Shown: piece by piece, positions 18,751 to 44,109 of the stretch
How the letters are laid out: each line of letters opens with the position of its first letter
Position numbering within the stretch: position 1 is the stretch's first letter
DNA from: an uncultured Bacilli bacterium
GTDB taxonomy: Bacteria; Bacillota_I; Bacilli_A; RF39; UBA660
Length of the DNA stretch: 64,000 nucleotides
NCBI GenBank assembly: GCA_947594925.1
Contig: CANQEJ010000002.1
Coordinates: forward strand, 2 to 64,001
Direction of reading: 5' to 3'
Translations under genes and position numbers: made by a program
The notes under the pieces: model-generated
What the model was told of the DNA's origin: nothing
What the model saw: the letters and a program-made list of their open reading frames with translations, nothing else
Database searches by the model: none

Positions 18751-18795
18751 GGAAAATTTATAATATTATTAATTAATTAATTGGAGGGTTTAGAT

Positions 18796-20184
18796 ATGAA
18801 AGAAGAAATCGATTGGAAAGAAAAATTAAGGGCTATTGATAAAGAAATAAAAGCAAATATGAGTGAAGAAGAAAAGGAAAAATTACAAAAAGAAGAAGAA
18901 AATTTTAAGATTTTAGAAACTATTTTAAGATATTATTATAAACGTTTAATAAAAATTAAACATAAAAATTTAAATATTGTTGATGTCGCCGAATATTTTA
19001 ATATTCCTATAGATATAAAGCGATTATATGATTATGAAATTCATTTTTTAAGAAATGATAAATATCCTGTTATAGAGATAATTGATAAAAAAGAAAATAT
19101 CCAATACGTAAGTAATTTCTATGCAAAAGGAGAATTACTAGATGTGATTGATAATCCTATTTTCAATAATTTGGATATAACTAATTTCAATACTAATATT
19201 CAAATTAAGCATTTATATTATATTGGTCAAAATAGTCCTATTAAATCTCAACTAATTATACCAAATGATAAATATGAATTAGTATTTGAAAAAGAACAGC
19301 CAAATGATTTGGGATTTGGAAATAGTAGTAATATTTTTGTAGTCCGCTTTTATAAAAAATATGAAAAAGAAGGCATGACCAAAAAAGAACAGTTATTTGC
19401 TAATCACTTTCATACCTTTGCAAACAATATTGAAAATACTATGAAACAATTTATTACTTATGATTTTACTTCTTTTGATTTACCAAGAGAAGATAGACAA
19501 GATATCTATACTTATACAATCAATAACAATATTATCCATGGTATTAATGAATTAGATACAATAAATGAACATATTTCTTTTAAGGCTTTTGCTAGTATGG
19601 AAAATACAAAAATAGCAAATTTAGAAAGATATCTTCCTATAGATTATAGTATCTACGAAAAAGAAGAATTAAAGCGTGAAAATGTAAATGCTGCTATTTG
19701 GTTTTCGGGCTATAATACTGATAATGCTTATTATGCCGTTAAGATATTTAAGAAACTTGATAAAATTAATTTAAATTTACATTGTAGATATATAGATGAA
19801 CAACATAATACTATCGAAAGGACGGAAATAAGAGAATTACCAATTTTAGATAATGGCAAATTAACAATTGAGGAAATAGATAGTATAATAGACTTATTAA
19901 ATCAAATTTATCCTGATAATTTATTTATGTCCTATACCATAGACCAAATAAGAAAATTTCAAACGGAAATAAAAATAAAAGAAAAAATTATAAATAAAGA
20001 GGAAAATTTACTAGACCCAGAAATGTTATCTTCAAAGGAATATGCAGAAATAGCGCAAATGGTTTTAGAAGATAAAAAAGCTTATTTTGATTTAGCATTA
20101 GAGCAATTTTATAATGCTACGCATATGGGAGAAGCAAGAGAAAAGAAACAAAATCAATATCAAAAATTACTTAATAAAAAATAA
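18796..20184 (+). CDS. Hypothetical protein, paralog of 24487-25716
   Basis: GGAGGG RBS before ATG 18796; collinear similarity blocks with the 409-aa protein. Confidence 0.6.
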   Translation: MKEEIDWKEKLRAIDKEIKANMSEEEKEKLQKEEENFKILETILRYYYKRLIKIKHKNLNIVDVAEYFNIPIDIKRLYDYEIHFLRNDKYPVIEIIDKKENIQYVSNFYAKGELLDVIDNPIFNNLDITNFNTNIQIKHLYYIGQNSPIKSQLIIPNDKYELVFEKEQPNDLGFGNSSNIFVVRFYKKYEKEGMTKKEQLFANHFHTFANNIENTMKQFITYDFTSFDLPREDRQDIYTYTINNNIIHGINELDTINEHISFKAFASMENTKIANLERYLPIDYSIYEKEELKRENVNAAIWFSGYNTDNAYYAVKIFKKLDKINLNLHCRYIDEQHNTIERTEIRELPILDNGKLTIEEIDSIIDLLNQIYPDNLFMSYTIDQIRKFQTEIKIKEKIINKEENLLDPEMLSSKEYAEIAQMVLEDKKAYFDLALEQFYNATHMGEAREKKQNQYQKLLNKK

Positions 20185-24486: not shown

Positions 24487-25716
24487 ATGAAACAAAGAAC
24501 TTTAGATATGGAAGAAATGAAAAAAGATTTAGCTCTAACTTATGATAAATATCAGAAGGCAAAAAAAAGTAAAATGGTGCAGTTAACAAGAATTTTAAGA
24601 TACTTTCGTTTAAAAATTGATAAAACAAGAATAAATGATTACCAAATAATAAAATTAGAGTGGCTTAAAGAACCTATTCTTATTTTAATTGATACAAAAG
24701 AAAATATCTTGTATCAAAGTAAGTATTATTATGACCATTATTCGCACCAATTTAAATATATTAAAAATAAGATATCTGGTTCTTTAAGAGAAAGAGAAGA
24801 TTATTATGCAATCAATAATTCTTGGGCTTATGCTACTAACTTAACTTTTAAATTAGATAATGAAAAATTAATATTTAAAAAAGAAAATCCTTATCCACCT
24901 AATTATCCAATTCCGCAGTTTAATCAAGGTATTACAATCTTATATCAAAAAGACTTAGAGGAAGAAGAGTGTCTAGAAAAAACATACCAAAGTTATGACG
25001 AAGGAAGATGCTATGCATCTAGCTATGAAAAAGTATGTAGTAATGAAAAAATGGCTTTACAAGAAGAAACAGGTTGGCAAAATAGATATACATATACCAA
25101 TCAAAATAGTCTAATATATGGTATTGATACTTTCAACGATACTTATAAATGTGCTGGTGTTTTATTTACTAATAGCCATATTCTTGAGCCTTACAAATTC
25201 TTCCCAGAATCTCTTAAAGCATGTTGCCCTGAAAGATTATTTCATGATAGTAATACTTATTCTGCACTTATTTTTCGAGTAATTAGACCGACAGATTTTA
25301 ATAATATAGAAATTTACAAAACTAAAGAGGGTTTTAAAGTTTATTTAAGAATATGTCATTTTGCTAAAAATAATACTATTGAAAATAAAGAATTTGGTTT
25401 TCCAGTTTTAAAAAATGGGAAAATAGCAGAAGAAGAATTATCATATATAACTAAAAATCTAGAAAGTCACTTAGACCCGGAAGTAATGCAAATTTTCGTC
25501 TCATATTTAAATAGTGCTGCCGAAAAAATGACTGGCTATCAAGATTTAGAAGAAAGTCAAAAAGGCACCTTATCAGCCAAAACTTTTCTTTCTAAATCCG
25601 CTGATGAAATAGTTAAAACAATTGAAGCCAAAAAGGAATATTATTTTTCTTTAGCTTCTAAAGAATATAACGATTTAGCCTTTAAACAACCCGCTAATTC
25701 TCGTATTTTAAAGTAA
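24487..25716 (+). CDS. Hypothetical protein, paralog of 18796-20184
   Basis: GGGGGA RBS; collinear similarity blocks (ILRY, IDTKENILYQS, YTYTNQNSLIYGID, PVLKNGKI.EEEL, KKEYYFSLA). Confidence 0.6.
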   Translation: MKQRTLDMEEMKKDLALTYDKYQKAKKSKMVQLTRILRYFRLKIDKTRINDYQIIKLEWLKEPILILIDTKENILYQSKYYYDHYSHQFKYIKNKISGSLREREDYYAINNSWAYATNLTFKLDNEKLIFKKENPYPPNYPIPQFNQGITILYQKDLEEEECLEKTYQSYDEGRCYASSYEKVCSNEKMALQEETGWQNRYTYTNQNSLIYGIDTFNDTYKCAGVLFTNSHILEPYKFFPESLKACCPERLFHDSNTYSALIFRVIRPTDFNNIEIYKTKEGFKVYLRICHFAKNNTIENKEFGFPVLKNGKIAEEELSYITKNLESHLDPEVMQIFVSYLNSAAEKMTGYQDLEESQKGTLSAKTFLSKSADEIVKTIEAKKEYYFSLASKEYNDLAFKQPANSRILK

Positions 25717-26962: not shown

Positions 26963-27409
26963 ATGAGTTATTTAATAAAAAGAGATAAAAAAACTAATAC
27001 TATTACCTACATGGAATATAACATGCAAGGCTATAAATTTACTCCCAAAAGCAAAGAAAATGCTAAAATTCAAGTTAACCAAATTGTCGTTGTCAATCCT
27101 AGTATGATTGAACAAATTCTTACTTTAAAATTTAATACTATGTTTAGAAAATTAATGGCCTTTGTTTTAAATTTTTTAAATGACCCATCCTCAGATTCTA
27201 CTAATGGTATGTATGCCTTAACAGAAATTGAACGTTTAAAAAGTATTATCTTTAATAAATATCAAAATTATTTAACTATAGAAAAACAAAAAGCTTTTCT
27301 AGATAAGTTAGCCTACTTAGAAAAGCAAATTAATATGAAAATGTTAATGACCTATGAATTTATGGCTCCTAGTTATGAAGAAGAACAAACCCAAGGAAGA
27401 GGTCGTTAA
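26963..27409 (+). CDS. Hypothetical protein
   Basis: ORF following trmD (where rplS is common in Firmicutes); no family recognised. Confidence 0.5.
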   Translation: MSYLIKRDKKTNTITYMEYNMQGYKFTPKSKENAKIQVNQIVVVNPSMIEQILTLKFNTMFRKLMAFVLNFLNDPSSDSTNGMYALTEIERLKSIIFNKYQNYLTIEKQKAFLDKLAYLEKQINMKMLMTYEFMAPSYEEEQTQGRGR

Positions 27410-27414
27410 AAAAA

Positions 27415-27435
27415 TACTCCTTACGGAGTGTTTTT
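27415..27435 (+). terminator. Rho-independent terminator
   Basis: TACTCC-TTAC-GGAGTG followed by TTTTT. Confidence 0.7.
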
Positions 27436-27537: not shown

Positions 27538-27577
27538 AAAAAAAGGAAATAGAAGATTTATCTATAATATATATAAT
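27538..27577 (+). promoter_or_regulatory. Conserved 40-nt promoter block (AAAAAAAGGAAAT-N3-AGATTTATCTATAATATAT-N-TAAT), copy 1, upstream of comEA
   Basis: 36/40 ungapped identity with 34696-34735; TATAAT at 27563-27568 with no TTGACA-like -35. Confidence 0.6.
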
Positions 27578-27607: not shown

Positions 27608-28351
27608 ATGGATGAAATTTTAAATTATAATAAGAAAGGTAAAAAAGTTCTTTACTTTATTGGAGCTCTTATCCTTATTTTAGGTGGTATTATCAGTTAT
27701 TTTATTATTAATAAATATGATGATAATAACGAAAAAGAAACATCTATTGCTAGTCTTACTGATGAGTTAAAAGATAGTGATACAATAGACAAAGAGGAAG
27801 ATAAAAATGAGAATGCCACTAAAGATAAAGAGGTAAAGATTAAAGTAGATATTAAAGGAGCTATTAATAATCCTGGTGTCTATGAAGTTTCCGAAGATAC
27901 CATCGTTAATGAACTTATTAATATGGCAGGTGGCCTGATGGCTAATGCAACGACAAAAAATATTAATTTAAGTCGCAAACTTCAAGATGAAATGGTAGTC
28001 ATTATATATACGGAAAATGAACTTAAAAATAAGGAAGAAATAAAAGAAGATTGTTTAGAAGATAAAGTAGATATATCTTCATGTTATGAAGAAGAAAAAG
28101 CAATTGTTGTTCCTAAGAATACTACCGAAGAGGCTGCCCAAACTCAAAGTAGTAGTGATGCTAAAGTTTCTTTAAATAAGGCCTCTAAAGAAGAATTAAT
28201 GACTTTAAGTGGCATTGGGGAAGCTAAAGCATTAAAAATAATTGCCTATCGCGAAAGTAATGATGGTTTTAAAACAATTGATGAATTAATGGAAGTAAGT
28301 GGGATAGGGGAATCTATATTTAATAAGATTAAAGAACGTCTTACACTCTAA
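27608..28351 (+). CDS. comEA: Competence DNA receptor ComEA (TM anchor, SLBB-like domain, tandem helix-hairpin-helix)
   Basis: C-terminal LNKASKEELMTLSGIGEAKALKIIAYRE..G.F..IDELMEVSGIGESIFNKIK. Confidence 0.85.
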   Translation: MDEILNYNKKGKKVLYFIGALILILGGIISYFIINKYDDNNEKETSIASLTDELKDSDTIDKEEDKNENATKDKEVKIKVDIKGAINNPGVYEVSEDTIVNELINMAGGLMANATTKNINLSRKLQDEMVVIIYTENELKNKEEIKEDCLEDKVDISSCYEEEKAIVVPKNTTEEAAQTQSSSDAKVSLNKASKEELMTLSGIGEAKALKIIAYRESNDGFKTIDELMEVSGIGESIFNKIKERLTL

Positions 28352-28697
28352 TAAATTTTTAAGTTTATTAATTGTTTTATTACTAATCTATGCTCTAATC
28401 TTTTTAAAATTAATTCCTTTTAAAAGTAAATTAAAACCTACGCAAAAAAGTATTGAAGGAATAATTTTAGAACAAAATATTGACGGTGATAAACTAGATA
28501 TAACTTTAAAAGCTCAAGAGAAAGTTAAAGTAACCTATTATTTTAAGACGGAAAAAGAAAAAAATAGTTTAGCAAAGAACCTAAAATTAGGCGTCAAAAT
28601 TAAAGTAGTTGGCAATTTAGAAGTTCCTTTAAAAAATACCATACCCAATACTTTTAATTATCAAAAATATTTAAATCATAATCATATTTACTATATA

Positions 28698-30389
28698 ATG
28701 CAAGCTCAGAAAATTATGATATTAAATAATAAAACCAAAGGAATTTATCAAATTAAAAATGCTTTAATTAAAAGAATAGAAAAAATGCCTCATAAAGAAT
28801 ATTATTATACTTTTATTTTAGGAAACAAAAACTATATTGATGAAGATACTTGGCAAGCTTATCAAAAAAATGGTATAACACATTTATTTGCTATCTCAGG
28901 AATGCATATTGCTATATTTGTTGCCATTATTAATAAAATATTTCAAGTATGTTCCATCAATAAAAAATTTAAAAATGGTGTTATCATTTTATTTGTTTTA
29001 TTTTATCTTTGCTTAACAAACTACGCTCCGAGTATTCTAAGAGCTAGTATCTTCTTTATTTTTAAATCTTTAAATCAAAAATATAATTTAAAATTACCAA
29101 CAATCAAAATTCTTTTGTATACCATTATCTTTATTATCTTTTTAAATCCTCATATTATATTTAATATTGGATTTTCATATTCTGTTATCTCAACGGCAAG
29201 TTTAATTATTTTTTCTAAACAAATTACTAGTAATAATTATTTTCTCCAAATTTTAAAAAGTAGTTTAATAATTAATATTGCCACATTACCAATAACGTTA
29301 TATAACTTTTATGAAATAAACTTATGGGCCTTTTTAAGTGGGTGTCTTTTTATTTCCTATGTTACTTTTATATTATATCCTTTAATTTTAATTAATTTTG
29401 TTTTTCCACTTTTTTCATTAGATTATTTTATTAAAATAATGGAAATAGGAGCCAAGATAACTAGTAAATTAGGGATTAATATTGTAATAGCTAAAATCAA
29501 TTATCTATTTATTATTTGCTATTATTTATTGTTTTTCCTCTATATCTTCTTTTTAAAACCTAAATATTTACTACTTCTAGCGTTTTTAATTTTGCTAGGA
29601 AAAATAATGCCTAATCTAAATCCTAATTATTATATTTATTTTTTAGATGTAGGTCAGGGAGATAGTATAGTTTTAACTAGTAAATTTAAAAAAGAAGTTA
29701 TTATGATAGATACAGGAGGGAAAATATCTTATCCTAAAGAAGATTGGCAACAAAGAAAGCATAACTACAAATTAAGTACTAATACTATTACTTTTTTAAA
29801 AAGTATTGGCGTAACTAAAATTGATTTACTTATTATTACCCACGGTGATACTGACCATGCGCAAGAAGCCTTAAATATTGATAAAGAAATTCCCATAAAA
29901 AAAGTCATTATTAATAATGGAGAATTGACATCTTTAGAAAATGCTATTATCAAATCTTTAAATGTTGGAAAATCTTATGTTTCAAAAAATTTTAAAATGC
30001 AATTTCTTAATAGCCAAATTTATAAGGCTGAAAATGATAATAGTATCGTAACTTTAATGCAAATATATAAATATAAAATTCTTTTTACTGGTGATATATC
30101 ATCAAAGGTAGAAAATGATATTTTAGCGCATTATAATTTGAAGCTAGATTTTCTAAAGCTTGCTCATCATGGTTCTAAAACAAGTAATTCTTTAAATTTT
30201 TTAAAGCAATTAAACCCAAAGATAGCATTTAATAGTAGTGGTCGAAACAATCGCTACAATCACCCTTCTAAAGAAGTATTAGAAAATTTAGCTAAATTAA
30301 AAATTACCCTTTATGATACGCAAAAGTGTGGGAGTATAACTTTAAAAATTAATAAGAAAGAATTCACCATTAAAACCGCTCTTACATAA
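28698..30389 (+). CDS. comEC: DNA internalisation channel ComEC/Rec2 (competence domain + metallo-beta-lactamase domain); true 5' end probably upstream
   Basis: GITHLFAISGMHI competence-domain motif; FLDVGQGDS and ITHGDTDH MBL motifs. The same frame stays open back to 28308 and encodes a ComEC-like TM + OB-fold N-terminus without ATG/GTG/TTG. Confidence 0.85.
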   Translation: MQAQKIMILNNKTKGIYQIKNALIKRIEKMPHKEYYYTFILGNKNYIDEDTWQAYQKNGITHLFAISGMHIAIFVAIINKIFQVCSINKKFKNGVIILFVLFYLCLTNYAPSILRASIFFIFKSLNQKYNLKLPTIKILLYTIIFIIFLNPHIIFNIGFSYSVISTASLIIFSKQITSNNYFLQILKSSLIINIATLPITLYNFYEINLWAFLSGCLFISYVTFILYPLILINFVFPLFSLDYFIKIMEIGAKITSKLGINIVIAKINYLFIICYYLLFFLYIFFLKPKYLLLLAFLILLGKIMPNLNPNYYIYFLDVGQGDSIVLTSKFKKEVIMIDTGGKISYPKEDWQQRKHNYKLSTNTITFLKSIGVTKIDLLIITHGDTDHAQEALNIDKEIPIKKVIINNGELTSLENAIIKSLNVGKSYVSKNFKMQFLNSQIYKAENDNSIVTLMQIYKYKILFTGDISSKVENDILAHYNLKLDFLKLAHHGSKTSNSLNFLKQLNPKIAFNSSGRNNRYNHPSKEVLENLAKLKITLYDTQKCGSITLKINKKEFTIKTALT

Positions 30390-30484
30390 GATATATTGTA
30401 CGTTATATAACGTTTATATAGATGAAAAGAGGGCATTTACTTGTCCTTTTTTCAGTTTTTTTGTACAATATTAATGGTGGTTGT

Positions 30485-34659: not shown

Positions 34660-34691
34660 TACAAATTATTAAAAATTTGTATTTTTTTTTT
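34659..34691 (+). terminator. Rho-independent terminator after queA
   Basis: ATACAAATT/AATTTGTAT 9-bp hairpin followed by T10. Confidence 0.8.
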
Positions 34692-34695
34692 ACGA

Positions 34696-34735
34696 AAAAA
34701 AAGGAAATCAGAGATTTATCTATAATATATCTAAT
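34696..34735 (+). promoter_or_regulatory. Conserved 40-nt promoter block, copy 2, upstream of M23 peptidase gene
   Basis: 36/40 identity to 27538-27577; TATAAT at 34721-34726; same 12-nt spacing from GGAAAT. Confidence 0.6.
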
Positions 34736-34784: not shown

Positions 34785-36230
34785 TTGAAGGCCTTGTTTT
34801 TTTCTAGTTTAGTTTGTCTATGTTTTTTAGCATGTGGTGTTTTATATTCGCAAAGCGATATTGAAACAGAAAAAAGCTTAGCTACTGAAAAACTAGAAAC
34901 TAAAGCATCTAATAAAACGGAGAAGTCTATTAGTAATATTAAAGAATTAAAATATAAAAAGCTAGAAACTAAAATAACAGATAACCAGGCTTTAGAAGAA
35001 GAAAGCGTTATTGCTATTAAAAATGAAGAAAGTCCTAAAGAAATAGATGCTTCTAACGTAGAAGAACTACCAGTAGAAGAAAGTGTTCAAGAGACTAACT
35101 CTTTAGAATTAATAGATAATAATGTTGTAGAAAAAGAAGTTCCTAAAGAAGAGATAAAAGAAGAAAACGATATTGAAAAAATAAAGCAAACTATTTCCTT
35201 ATTTTCCGATTCATTAGTTAAAGCTCAAAATATCGAAGAAATAAAAAGTAATGCTTTAGATTTAGAAAATATCGATACTAGTCTATTACAAGAAACATCT
35301 ACTATTTCTAATGATTTGAAAGAAGTCCAAAATGGTTATAATAATATATTACAAGTTGATGACTTTCTAAAAAAAGCTCAAGTGTTAGATAATCCAAATA
35401 AAACTAAAGATGATGTTTTAAGTTTAAAAGCTACATTACAAAGTGCTGATATTAAAAACATTGTTCAAACAATTCCTAATGATAAACTTAAGAATAATTA
35501 TCTAACTAAACTAGCTAACGTTACTAAAATATTAGATGATGAAACTTCTCCAGAAGTTAATATTGGTGATAATCAAGTTTTAAATGATAATGTTCAGTTA
35601 GAAATAACTGATGAAAATGCATATCAAGTATACTTAAATGGCCAACTAGTAGACGACTTGAATATTACCGAAAATGGCGAATACAATCTTAAAGTAGAAG
35701 ATGAAGCATTAAATGAAACTAATATTCATTTTAAATTAGAAAAACCGGAAGAAGAGGAAGAAGAAATCATTTATACCGAGGTTTCTAACGATACCGAAAG
35801 TATTCCCGAAGAAGAAAAAGAACAAACGCGCTATCCACTTAATAATTGGTATATGACCCAAGACTATGAAGGTAAAAATGGTCATATGGGGATAGATTTA
35901 GGAAGTTCTAATAAAAAAGAAGAAATCTATCCTATAGCAGATGGCACAGTAGTCTATGTCGGGCAAGATAATTATGGTGCTAATCTAGTTCAAATTAAAC
36001 ATAATATTAATGGAGAAGAGCTTTATTCAACTTATGGACATATGAGCGAAGTTTATTTTAATAATGACCAAGAGGTTAGTCAAAATGATTTATTAGGGTT
36101 AATGGGAGCTACTGGTAATGCTACTGGTCCTCATTTGCATTTAGAAATGGCTACCTGCGGATTTGAAGCCAATTGCTCTTATGCAACATATAAAGATAAT
36201 CTTGTTAATCCTTGGGATTACTTGCCTTAA
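34785..36230 (+). CDS. Secreted M23-family (LytM-type) peptidoglycan endopeptidase with long Glu/Lys-rich N-terminal region
   Basis: Signal peptide; HxxxD (NGHMGIDLG) and HxH (GPHLHLE) M23 motifs; TTG start after AAGGAGGTGA. Confidence 0.85.
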   Translation: MKALFFSSLVCLCFLACGVLYSQSDIETEKSLATEKLETKASNKTEKSISNIKELKYKKLETKITDNQALEEESVIAIKNEESPKEIDASNVEELPVEESVQETNSLELIDNNVVEKEVPKEEIKEENDIEKIKQTISLFSDSLVKAQNIEEIKSNALDLENIDTSLLQETSTISNDLKEVQNGYNNILQVDDFLKKAQVLDNPNKTKDDVLSLKATLQSADIKNIVQTIPNDKLKNNYLTKLANVTKILDDETSPEVNIGDNQVLNDNVQLEITDENAYQVYLNGQLVDDLNITENGEYNLKVEDEALNETNIHFKLEKPEEEEEEIIYTEVSNDTESIPEEEKEQTRYPLNNWYMTQDYEGKNGHMGIDLGSSNKKEEIYPIADGTVVYVGQDNYGANLVQIKHNINGEELYSTYGHMSEVYFNNDQEVSQNDLLGLMGATGNATGPHLHLEMATCGFEANCSYATYKDNLVNPWDYLP

Positions 36231-43136: not shown

Positions 43137-43230
43137 ATACTTCCTCCTTTAAATGAGCTTATAATAGCAAAATAACGTCAAATAGTAAATAATATTGTAT
43201 AAAATAAATATCTTGTGATATAATAAAAGT

Positions 43231-43376
43231 ACCTAGAGTAATAGTTTGTTTTATATAAAACCGACTAAGTGATACATTGGGAATCTAATTGCTCTTCGGT
43301 GTAGAAGACTGAGCCATTAAGTGATTCAGGATCCTAAAGAAAAGCATGTGATGCCCACCTCGCGCGAGCGGGTTTT
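43231..43376 (+). promoter_or_regulatory. Structured GC-rich 5' leader with terminator-like hairpin, unassigned class
   Basis: TGATATAAT extended -10 at 43216-43224; local hairpin TCTTC-GGTGTA-GAAGA; GC-rich hairpin CCCACCTCGCGCGAGCGGG + TTTTT at 43354-43376. Confidence 0.4.
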
Positions 43377-43422
43377 TATCACAACAGGCTATTATCTTCT
43401 AGGTTTTTATGTGGTGATTTTC

Positions 43423-44109
43423 ATGGATAGATTTCAAAGATTTAAATTATTAGTTGCATCTGATTATGATTTAATAAAAAATAAGAAAATAGCCATTATT
43501 GGGCTTGGAGGAGTAGGAGGCTATGCCTTAGAAAGTTTAATTCGTTGTGGCATTGAAAACTTTGTCTTAATTGATAATGATAAAATTGAAATAAGCAATT
43601 TAAATAGGCAAATAATTGCTTTAGAAGAAAATATTGGTTATCCTAAAGTCCAAGCTTGGCAAAAAAGAGGCTTAGCTATTAACAACGAAGCTAATATTAC
43701 AATTTATGAAGAGTTTCTTTTAAAAGAAAATATCACTCTTTTAGATAAATTTTCTCTAGATTATATAATAGATGCCTGTGATACTATAACAACTAAAATT
43801 GAACTTATTAAATATGCCAAAAAACATAATATTAAGATAATTTCTTCAATGGGTACCGGTAAAAGACTTGATGCTACTAAACTAACTATTACAACTTTAG
43901 ATAAAACTCAAAATGACCCTATTGCTAAAATAATGCGTAAGAAGTTAAAAGAAGAAAATATTTCTTTAAAAATTCCTGTTATTTGGAGTAGGGAATTACC
44001 TTTAAAAATAAAAAGTGATAATATTCCAAGCTGCTCATATGTTCCTGCTACAGCTGGCTTATTAATCACTAATTACATTATAAATGATATATTAAATCAT
44101 AAAGTATAA
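43423..44109 (+). CDS. tcdA: ThiF/HesA-family adenylyltransferase-like, TcdA (tRNA ct6A dehydratase)-like
   Basis: IIGLGGVGGYALESLIRCG...LIDNDKIEISNLNRQ; the N-terminus aligns from MDRFQRF (ATG 43423, GGTGA RBS), so the GTG 43321 start on the ORF track is probably too far upstream. Confidence 0.7.
   Translation: MDRFQRFKLLVASDYDLIKNKKIAIIGLGGVGGYALESLIRCGIENFVLIDNDKIEISNLNRQIIALEENIGYPKVQAWQKRGLAINNEANITIYEEFLLKENITLLDKFSLDYIIDACDTITTKIELIKYAKKHNIKIISSMGTGKRLDATKLTITTLDKTQNDPIAKIMRKKLKEENISLKIPVIWSRELPLKIKSDNIPSCSYVPATAGLLITNYIINDILNHKV

What the first reader, a model, noticed from the sequence alone, without database searches (positions are those of the whole stretch)
27538..27577. 40-nt conserved non-canonical promoter block shared by comEA-comEC and an M23 murein hydrolase gene
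AAAAAAAGGAAATAGAAGATTTATCTATAATATATATAAT (27538-27577) and AAAAAAAGGAAATCAGAGATTTATCTATAATATATCTAAT (34696-34735) are 36/40 identical without gaps. Each lies 30-50 nt upstream of a start codon. Both have a TATAAT but no TTGACA-like -35. At the expected -35 position there is AAAAAG.

Instead, the conserved upstream block AAAGGAAAT matches the B. subtilis sigmaH -35 consensus RNAGGAWWW. SigmaH-family factors (ComX/SigH) drive late competence genes in non-sporulating Firmicutes.

The second copy drives a secreted peptidoglycan hydrolase. This parallels competence-induced fratricins (CbpD, LytF) in streptococci. Together this suggests a competence-type regulon with its own lysin in this lineage.
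Basis: partly seen in the sequence, partly recalled or inferred. Interest (0 to 1): 0.62.

Follow-up and report, generated by a model that had tools for sequence, protein, structure and literature searches.

The report
SigH-type competence promoter in gut Bacilli
The two near-identical 40-base blocks are copies of a lineage-wide promoter, most likely read by the alternative sigma factor SigH, that in uncultured rabbit- and human-gut Bacilli sits in front of DNA-uptake, recombination, primase/sigma-A and cell-wall hydrolase genes: a new variant of a known kind of competence regulon.

Summary
The blocks at 27538-27577 and 34696-34735 are 36/40 identical. They are the only such pair in the window, and none arose in 10 simulated windows. 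Each lies between a terminator-like hairpin and a gene (comEA-comEC; an M23 peptidase).

The block is conserved upstream of both genes in related uncultured Bacilli MAGs. Its form is AAAAAGGAAAT, a variable 12-nt spacer, then [T/G]ATAATATAT-N-TAAT, followed closely by the ribosome-binding site.

A scan of 185,579 species genomes with the correct spacing found 56 sites. Twenty carry the full signature, all in this clade and up to six per MAG. A scan one base off found none. The genes downstream are comEA, M23 peptidase, recA, dnaG-rpoD, radC, a UvrD-like helicase and several nucleases.

More distant comEA orthologues have AAAGGAAAT-N11-TGCGAAT, the canonical SigH promoter, at the same place. 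A sigH orthologue sits in the classical mrnC-rlmB-sigH locus of two MAGs that carry five or six sites each.

The gene set parallels the experimentally defined Listeria SigH regulon (comE operon, dnaG-rpoD, a murein hydrolase).

Still untested: transcription itself, sigH in this genome, comG/comF/dprA, and the lysin's role. The invariant 15-nt -10/start module (T in place of the diagnostic G) is unexplained.

The parts
27416..27435 (+). Terminator-like hairpin (ACTCC-TTAC-GGAGT followed by T5) ending the upstream 148-aa gene. It isolates block 1 from upstream transcription.
   Evidence: Sequence. The symmetric hairpin was flagged by the scan, which listed it on the - strand.
27538..27577 (+). 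Block 1, a SigH-type promoter. A-tract plus -35 AAAGGAAAT at 27542-27550, spacer at 27551-27561, -10 CTATAAT at 27562-27568, invariant ATATATAAT at 27569-27577. The predicted start is the A at 27575 or 27576.
   Evidence: The transcription start is inferred from the geometry only.
27608..28351 (+). comEA (SLBB and helix-hairpin-helix DNA-binding domains), 247 aa.
   Evidence: TIGR00426 at 70.9 bits against a cut-off of 53.1; PF12836; PF10531.
28308..30389 (+). comEC (Competence and metallo-beta-lactamase domains). Homology to full-length ComEC starts at 28308, but the first canonical start codon is the ATG at 28698.
   Evidence: (TIGR00361 at 236.7 bits against a cut-off of 190).
30423..30454 (+). 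A 13-bp hairpin with a T-run directly after comEC. It is the probable end, or an attenuation point, of the comEA-comEC transcript.
34660..34691 (+). Terminator-like hairpin (TACAAATT-ATTAAA-AATTTGTA followed by T10) after queA. It isolates block 2.
   Evidence: Read from the sequence. The stem is A+T-rich, so the consensus scan did not flag it.
34696..34735 (+). Block 2, a SigH-type promoter. -35 AAAGGAAAT at 34700-34708, -10 CTATAAT at 34720-34726, invariant ATATCTAAT at 34727-34735. The predicted start is the A at 34733 or 34734.
34785..36230 (+). M23 (LytM-type) peptidoglycan endopeptidase, 481 aa. It has an N-terminal signal or anchor, a long acidic linker and a C-terminal M23 domain with HxxxD (HMGID) and HxH (HLH) intact.
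   Evidence: PF01551, E = 1.9e-21. The catalytic motifs were read from the translation.

Best explanation
Each block is a complete promoter for RNA polymerase carrying a SigH-family alternative sigma factor. This is the group that drives competence genes in non-sporulating Bacilli.

Proposed mechanism. Region 4 of the sigma factor reads AAAGGAAAT. Eleven bases further on, region 2 reads a 7-nt -10 element, n[T/G]ATAAT, which occupies exactly the place of RRMGAAT in canonical SigH promoters. Transcription is predicted to start about 7 nt later, inside the conserved TAAT. This gives a very short leader that runs almost directly into the ribosome-binding site.

Gene set. When the factor is active, the cell co-expresses the DNA-uptake channel (comEA-comEC), recombination functions (recA, radC, a UvrD-like helicase), dnaG-rpoD, several nucleases and an exported M23 murein endopeptidase. 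This is a competence or DNA-recombination regulon with its own cell-wall hydrolase.

Shown here: the conservation, the geometry, the gene set, the presence of sigH in the clade, and the GAAT-to-TAAT series across relatives.

Inferred: that SigH is the factor, the position of the start site, co-induction of the genes, and what the M23 enzyme does (lysis of neighbours, or local opening of the cell's own wall).
For: (a) Bipartite conservation. In orthologous comEA and M23 upstream regions retrieved by protein homology, the A-tract/AGGAAAT and the 15-nt [T/G]ATAATATATNTAAT are invariant. The 12-nt spacer can be entirely different, as in L004. Across 34 sites, per-position information in most of the spacer is 0.1-0.7 bits.

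(b) The spacing is critical. The pattern with N14 gave 56 hits in 185,579 species genomes. Twenty carry the full signature (A-run, T/G before ATAAT, RBS within 12 nt), all in uncultured Bacilli/Tenericutes MAGs. MAG CANQLL01 has 6 sites and CANQNZ01 has 5. The same pattern with N13 gave 33 hits and none with the signature.

(c) Downstream genes. comEA at 5 loci, dnaG followed by rpoD at 5, M23 at 2, recA at 2, a UvrD-like helicase at 3, radC at 1, and PD-(D/E)XK, YhcG and MvaI/BcnI nucleases.

(d) More distant comEA orthologues have AAAGGAAAT-N11-TGCGAAT or CGAGAAT at the same place. This equals the Listeria comEA SigH promoter, AAAGGAATT-N11-GGCGAAT (PMC4754846).

(e) sigH orthologues (199-204 aa) lie in the classical mrnC-rlmB-sigH locus of both multi-site MAGs. 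Their best NCBIfam models are SigH (E = 1e-28 to 1e-26), and their best PDB sequence match is 'RNA polymerase sigma-H factor' 3mzy (E = 1.5e-19).

(f) The Listeria SigH regulon, defined experimentally, comprises comG, comEA-EB-EC, coiA, the murein hydrolase lytG (-35 GAAGGAAAT) and LMRG_00908-dnaG-rpoD. The B. subtilis dnaG-sigA operon has two SigH promoters.

(g) The window's RpoD has a canonical region 4.2, and the blocks lack TTGACA.
Against: There are no transcription data. No RNA run holds this organism. The -10 lacks the G that is diagnostic of SigH promoters and is instead a perfect sigma-A TATAAT, so sigma-A could contribute. The sigH orthologues score below NCBIfam's equivalog cut-offs (about 100 bits against about 210-295). 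sigH could not be shown in the window's own genome; a candidate, P0127, comes from the same study but could not be linked to it. No comG, comF, dprA, ssbB or coiA gene appeared among the hits or in 412 kb of fetched clade DNA, so 'competence' rests on comEA/EC, recA and radC. The invariance of the 9 bases after the -10 is more than sigma recognition normally requires. sigH appears to be co-transcribed with housekeeping genes, so it is not clear how the regulon would be switched.
Confidence: 0.78

Rival explanations
1. The block is a sigma-A promoter that lacks a -35 element and depends on a transcription activator (class II, ComK-like or other) bound at AAAAAGGAAAT. The TATAAT is read by the housekeeping sigma factor.
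For: There is a perfect TATAAT at the expected place. There is no alternative sigma gene in the window or in most of the fetched loci. The -10 lacks the SigH-type G.
Against: More distant orthologous comEA promoters keep AAAGGAAAT but have GCGAAT or GAGAAT in place of TATAAT. That is a poor sigma-A -10 and a canonical SigH -10. The 11-nt distance between the elements is the SigH geometry. A sigH orthologue is present in the clade. No candidate activator was seen.
Confidence: 0.1
2. The block is a promoter (SigH or sigma-A) overlapped by an operator. The invariant ATAATATATNTAAT is conserved because a repressor or another DNA-binding protein sits on the -10/start region and keeps the regulon shut. 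This can be true together with the main explanation.
For: Fifteen consecutive bases, including the discriminator and start region, are invariant at sites retrieved independently of the pattern. A relaxed matrix scan found only one intermediate site, so sites are either near-perfect or absent. This is tighter than the Listeria SigH promoters.
Against: The segment has no clear dyad symmetry. No candidate regulator gene was found next to any site. Related lineages keep only an A+T-rich stretch there, without the exact sequence.
Confidence: 0.1
3. The block is a dispersed repeat (a miniature mobile element or a product of gene conversion) with no regulatory role.
For: There are two nearly identical copies in one window. 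About six of some 35 copies in MAGs lie at contig ends. Two copies precede PD-(D/E)XK 'transposase' genes.
Against: Every interpretable copy has the same orientation and sits 7-50 nt upstream of a start codon, with the RBS right after it. The block has sharp 40-nt edges and no terminal inverted repeats or target duplications. The sites are orthologous across species with 49-68% ComEA identity. The downstream gene set is functionally coherent.
Confidence: 0.02

Closest known systems
Listeria monocytogenes SigH-dependent promoters and regulon (PMC4754846)
   Same: The -35 is AAAGGAWWT (the lytG promoter has GAAGGAAAT). There are 11 nt to a 7-nt -10. The targets are the comEA-comEC operon, the dnaG-rpoD operon and a peptidoglycan hydrolase. 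The promoters lie close to the genes (19-22 nt for comG and comE).
   Different: The Listeria -10 is GGCGAAT or GAAGAAT, whereas here it is n[T/G]ATAAT followed by nine more invariant bases. The Listeria hydrolase is a glucosaminidase (lytG), and here it is an M23 endopeptidase. Here recA, radC, a UvrD-like helicase and nucleases are also targets. comG and coiA were not observed here.
Bacillus subtilis sigma-H consensus RNAGGAWWW-N11-12-RNNGAATWW and the two SigH promoters of the dnaG-sigA operon (cited in PMC2824700; consensus as quoted in PMC4754846)
   Same: The -35 sequence and the spacing are the same, and dnaG-rpoD is a target. The sigH gene sits after mrnC-rlmB.
   Different: In B. subtilis SigH governs entry into sporulation and competence is driven by ComK. 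There is no sign of sporulation in this lineage. The -10 base G is replaced by T.
SigH of Staphylococcus aureus and Lactobacillus sakei (PMC3486894, PMC3364868)
   Same: A SigH-family factor switches on com genes (comE, comG) in non-sporulating Bacilli.
   Different: I could not retrieve the promoter sequences from those papers. In S. aureus sigH is cryptic and controlled through its 5' UTR. Here sigH is translationally coupled to rlmB.
Streptococcal ComX (sigma-X) late-competence regulon with the fratricin CbpD (PMC6560143)
   Same: An alternative sigma factor co-induces DNA uptake genes, recA, radC and a secreted murein hydrolase. rpoD rises up to 10-fold during competence.
   Different: The ComX box is a -10-only element and is unrelated in sequence. 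Pneumococcal rpoD has no ComX site, whereas here dnaG-rpoD carries the block directly. CbpD and LytF are CHAP-domain enzymes (my own recall), not M23 peptidases.
Mycoplasma genitalium sigma-20 (MG428) recombination regulon
   Same: A minor sigma factor in a reduced low-GC Bacillota-derived genome drives recA and other recombination genes.
   Different: As I recall it, the promoter is different (TTGTCA-N18-19-ATTWAT), the sigma factor is not of the SigH family, and there is no comEA/EC target.

Membership tests
SigH (sigma-H) dependent promoter of Bacillota | -35 element RNAGGAWWW | tested here: met
   AAAGGAAAT at 27542-27550 and 34700-34708. It is invariant (last base A or T) in all 34 clade sites.
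SigH (sigma-H) dependent promoter of Bacillota | 11-12 nt between the -35 and -10 elements | tested here: met
   Exactly 11 nt in every site. A one-base-shorter pattern recovers no genuine site.
SigH (sigma-H) dependent promoter of Bacillota | -10 element RNNGAATWW / RRMGAAW (G four bases before the end) | tested here: not met
   The block has [C/G/A][T/G]ATAAT, with T where the consensus has G. Orthologous comEA sites in more distant relatives do have GCGAAT or GAGAAT at that position. I therefore file the block as a variant that works like a SigH promoter, not as a canonical member.
SigH (sigma-H) dependent promoter of Bacillota | A sigH gene in the same genome | tested here: inconclusive
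   Present in the related MAGs CANQLL01 (L068) and CANQNZ01 (L219), and on contigs from the same rabbit-gut study (L226). Absent from the 64-kb window. The rest of this genome was not available.
SigH (sigma-H) dependent promoter of Bacillota | Transcription that depends on SigH, with a start site 5-10 nt after the -10 | not testable with these tools
   No RNA runs were found for this organism.
Sigma-A (sigma-70) housekeeping promoter | TTGACA-like -35 located 16-18 nt upstream of TATAAT | tested here: not met
   The -35 position reads AAAAAG, and the consensus scan does not list either block. TATAAT itself is present.
Streptococcal ComX box (cin-box) promoter | TACGAATA -10 box (sequence from my own knowledge) and a comX gene | tested here: not met
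   The block has no CGAATA. The sigma factor found in the clade is best matched by SigH models, not ComX.
Competence-induced fratricin (CbpD/LytF type) | Exported murein hydrolase under the competence sigma factor | tested here: inconclusive
   The protein has an M23 domain with intact HxxxD and HxH motifs and an N-terminal signal or anchor. It shares the block with comEA in four species. The domain family differs from that of known fratricins, and competence control is inferred.
Competence-induced fratricin (CbpD/LytF type) | Kills non-competent siblings, with a cognate immunity protein | not testable with these tools
No immunity gene was recognised next to the M23 gene; its neighbours are queA and tgt.
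Known RNA families (leader or riboswitch) | Match to an Rfam covariance model | tested here: not met
   The only Rfam hit in the window is 6S RNA at 43227-43409.

The most novel reading that the evidence does not exclude
In this uncultured gut lineage the SigH factor may have switched its -10 specificity from GAAT to TAAT. It may also have come to require an invariant 15-nt -10/discriminator/start module. That would mean either a new mode of sigma-DNA contact or an unknown second factor bound there. The resulting 40-nt 'all-or-none' promoter would couple DNA uptake and recombination with an M23 lysin, several nucleases (including a restriction-type enzyme) and a small GG-motif peptide (seen at a single metagenome site). 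Under this reading these unculturable commensals are naturally transformable and carry a predatory, fratricide-like programme.
Probability: 0.3. Interest if true: 0.6.

Novelty: new variant of a known kind. Interest (0 to 1): 0.42.

Why it matters
It gives a sequence-defined and easily testable regulon for a group of gut Bacilli known only from metagenomes (27% G+C; rabbit, human, ruminant). It predicts that they can take up and recombine DNA, which bears on gene flow in the gut.

It extends the conserved SigH core (comE operon, dnaG-rpoD, a murein hydrolase) beyond Listeria and Bacillus, and it adds recA, radC, a helicase and nucleases.

The single-base shift of the -10 (G to T) along a phylogenetic series, with the sigma gene in hand, is a natural experiment on how sigma specificity evolves. 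The 40-nt block is also a ready-made portable promoter for reporter or induction work in this clade.

Tried and rejected
1. The first clade-wide pattern scan had the spacer one base too short. It found nothing genuine and cost one scan, but it serves as a negative control.

2. The search for related loci with the M23 protein chose low-complexity peptides and returned only one distant M23 domain.

3. Looking up the exact M23 protein gave only a 1.9-kb contig.

4. RNA-seq start-site mapping could not be done. Only DNA runs from rabbit gut hold the sequence.

6. phmmer with RpoD against all fetched ORFs found no alternative sigma factor. A region-2.2 regular expression did.

7. Regular-expression searches for DprA, ComGA, prepilin and ComFC signatures in 412 kb of clade DNA found none. 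The sample is small and biased, so this is not evidence of absence.

8. From memory I compared the block with the LexA (Cheo), CodY, CtsR, CIRCE, Fur/PerR and ComK-box consensus sequences and saw no match. No tool was used for this.

9. An RNA leader or riboswitch has no Rfam support, and the leader is too short.

10. A canonical SigH (GAAT) promoter search in the window found no gene-proximal site.

Full report
**The observation.** The two 40-mers are in the window exactly as quoted, at 27538-27577 and 34696-34735. They share 36 of 40 bases without gaps. The identity begins and ends abruptly, and the flanks are unrelated. An exhaustive seed-and-extend count found exactly one pair of 40-mers with at least 36 identities in the 64-kb window, namely this pair. 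None arose in ten first-order Markov simulations of the window, which has about 27% G+C. No third copy exists, even allowing 12 mismatches.

**The surroundings.**
- Block 1 ends 30 nt before comEA (27608-28351). comEA is followed by comEC, holA, ruvA, ruvB, an ATPase gene and queA.
- Block 2 ends 49 nt before a 481-aa M23 peptidase gene (34785-36230). That protein has an N-terminal signal or anchor and intact HxxxD and HxH motifs. tgt follows it.
- Each block lies just downstream of a terminator-like hairpin (27416-27435 and 34660-34691), so each should act as an independent promoter.
- A 13-bp hairpin with a T-run directly after comEC (30423-30454) suggests that the block-1 transcript is mainly comEA-comEC. 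I do not count holA-ruvAB as part of the regulon.
- The sigma-70 consensus scan does not list either block. The position where a -35 would sit reads AAAAAG.
- No Rfam family matches there.

**Conservation in relatives.** The organism is an uncultured low-G+C member of the Bacilli from rabbit gut. Its closest named relative at the ComEA level is a Candidatus Coprovivens MAG, at 44% identity.
- I retrieved loci by ComEA homology, not by the motif. The block is present upstream of comEA in L001, L004, L005-7 and L008 (49-68% ComEA identity), and upstream of the M23 gene in L005-7.
- The conserved parts are an A-tract plus GGAAA[T/A], and [T/G]ATAATATAT-N-TAAT. The 12 bases between them vary and are completely different in L004.
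- This is the footprint of a two-part recognition element with fixed spacing.

**Distribution and spacing.**
- A scan of one genome per species (185,579 species) with AAGGAAW-N14-ATAATATATNTAAT gave 56 hits. Twenty carry the full signature: three or more A before the motif, T or G before ATAAT, and a ribosome-binding site within 12 nt. All of these lie in uncultured Bacilli/Tenericutes MAGs. One MAG (CANQLL01) has six sites and another (CANQNZ01) has five.
- An accidental scan with the spacer one base shorter gave 33 scattered hits, none with the signature. The three hits in related MAGs lie inside a coding sequence on the other strand.
It added nine more sites of the same form by inspection; eight of them pass the three-feature filter.
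- A position matrix built from 34 sites found only one further, slightly degenerate copy in the clade loci held at that point, with nothing at intermediate scores.

**The genes downstream.**
- comEA at five loci in the species-genome scan, plus four more retrieved by homology.
- The M23 peptidase in four species.
- dnaG, followed by rpoD wherever the locus extends far enough (4 of the 5 loci), at five.
- recA at two, and radC at one.
- An orthologous UvrD-like helicase at three.
- Two PD-(D/E)XK 'transposase' (Rpn-like) genes, a YhcG nuclease and an MvaI/BcnI-family endonuclease.
- Less clear cases: a VanZ-like gene, an ABC/FtsX transporter, a membrane protein and a 40-aa peptide with a GG motif.
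- In most sites the ribosome-binding site begins 1-4 nt after the block. This places the transcription start inside the conserved TAAT, about 7 nt after TATAAT, and rules out the second TATAAT-like hexamer as the -10.

**Which factor reads it.**
- The -35 half fits the SigH consensus (A/G)(A/C)AGG(A/G)WWW, and the distance to the -10 is the SigH distance of 11 nt.
- The -10 half, n[T/G]ATAAT, occupies the seven positions of RRMGAAT, but with T in place of the diagnostic G.
- The decisive comparison is with more distant comEA orthologues. L222 and L223 read AAAGGAAAT-N11-TGCGAAT and CGAGAAT. L224 reads CGCAAT, and the Coprovivens locus reads AAAGGGATT-N11-TGTAGTA. The same promoter position therefore carries a canonical SigH -10 in outgroups and the TAAT form in the window's clade.
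- A SigH-family gene is present in the clade. It is a 199-aa protein in CANQLL01 (L068) and a 203-aa orthologue in CANQNZ01 (L219). Both lie in the classical Firmicute arrangement mrnC-rlmB-sigH. All five best NCBIfam models belong to the SigH group (three of them named SigH). They align end to end with E = 1e-28 to 1e-20, but score below the equivalog cut-offs. The best PDB sequence match is annotated 'RNA polymerase sigma-H factor'.
- A further orthologue, P0127, lies on contigs from the same rabbit-gut study as the window. I could not link it to this genome.
- The window's own RpoD has a canonical region 4.2, so it should require TTGACA.

**Comparison with what is known.**
- Overexpressing sigH in Listeria monocytogenes defined six SigH promoters: comG, comEA-EB-EC, coiA, the murein hydrolase lytG (-35 GAAGGAAAT), LMRG_00908-dnaG-rpoD and one further operon.
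- The B. subtilis dnaG-sigA operon has two SigH promoters.
- SigH activates com genes in S. aureus and L. sakei.
- In pneumococcus the ComX regulon contains radC and the fratricin CbpD among the late genes. rpoD rises up to tenfold there without a recognisable ComX site.
- The set found here is the conserved SigH core (comE operon, dnaG-rpoD, a murein hydrolase) plus typical late-competence genes (recA, radC). It uses a different hydrolase family and adds nucleases.
- Because the -10 fails the consensus at its key base, I file the block as a variant that works like a SigH promoter, not as a canonical member.

**What remains open.**
- There are no transcription data of any kind.
- sigH was not shown in this genome.
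- No comG, comF, dprA, ssbB or coiA genes were in the DNA I could reach. The regulon could equally be described as a DNA-uptake/recombination or SOS-substitute programme.
- The nine bases after the -10 are invariant within the clade, beyond what sigma recognition usually needs. An overlapping operator or an unusual discriminator requirement is possible.
- sigH is translationally coupled to rlmB, so its own regulation is unknown.
- The M23 enzyme may lyse neighbours as a fratricin, or it may open the cell's own wall for the uptake machinery. Nothing here distinguishes these.

**Verdict.** It is a new variant of a known kind of system, of moderate interest.

Noticed in passing
window 28308-28698: Homology to full-length ComEC (703 aa in L001) starts at 28308 and overlaps the end of comEA. 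The TTG start codon of L001 is TAG in the window, and there is no ATG, GTG or TTG in frame until 28698. About 130 N-terminal codons therefore either use a non-canonical start or are not translated. ComEC in L005-7 is also called short (585 aa).
   Followed up: partly
window 43227-43409 (+): 6S RNA (Rfam RF00013, 47.5 bits against a gathering score of 46.4). It overlaps the mechanical start of ORF 43321-44109, so that ORF's real start is probably further downstream.
   Followed up: no
window 30423-30454: A strong hairpin (13 pairs) with a T-run lies immediately after the comEC stop codon and over the nominal start of holA. It is a likely terminator or attenuator between comEC and holA-ruvAB.
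   Followed up: partly
L046, L047, L068, L071, L072, L216 (contig ends): About six of some 35 block copies in MAGs and metagenome contigs lie within 100 nt of a contig end. L046 and L071 share near-identical flanks. The repeated block, or a multi-copy gene behind it, seems to break assemblies.
   Followed up: no
L059, L074 (MAG CANQLL01); L105; L194: The block also precedes two PD-(D/E)XK 'transposase' (PF12784, Rpn-like) genes in one MAG, a YhcG/DUF1016 nuclease and an MvaI/BcnI-family restriction endonuclease. These are nucleases under a putative competence promoter.
   Followed up: partly
L157 380-530: A block is followed, after an RBS, by a 40-codon ORF (MNLLDKELINIYGGG...) that resembles a double-glycine leader peptide. 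This may be a bacteriocin-like or signalling peptide in the same regulon. It has no family hit.
   Followed up: no
L068 6808-6813; L217, L219, L226: In the clade, sigH starts 0-5 nt after rlmB, or overlaps its stop codon (ATGA), with no block or obvious promoter of its own. A conserved 63-aa ORF converges on its 3' end. rpsF-ssb-rpsR follow.
   Followed up: partly
window 26963-27409: A 148-aa ORF between trmD and comEA has no Pfam or NCBIfam hit. It is conserved in the same position in L001, L005, L008 and L222.
   Followed up: no
window 18781-20184, 24487-25716; L051 3160-4347: Proteins of about 400-470 aa and unknown function whose N-terminal sequences look alike by eye (not aligned). One sits directly upstream of the recA block in L051.
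   Followed up: no
L033, L035, L040: The mis-spaced (N13) pattern hit the same conserved sequence in three related MAGs. It lies inside a coding region on the opposite strand, which shows how coding conservation can mimic a conserved motif.
   Followed up: yes
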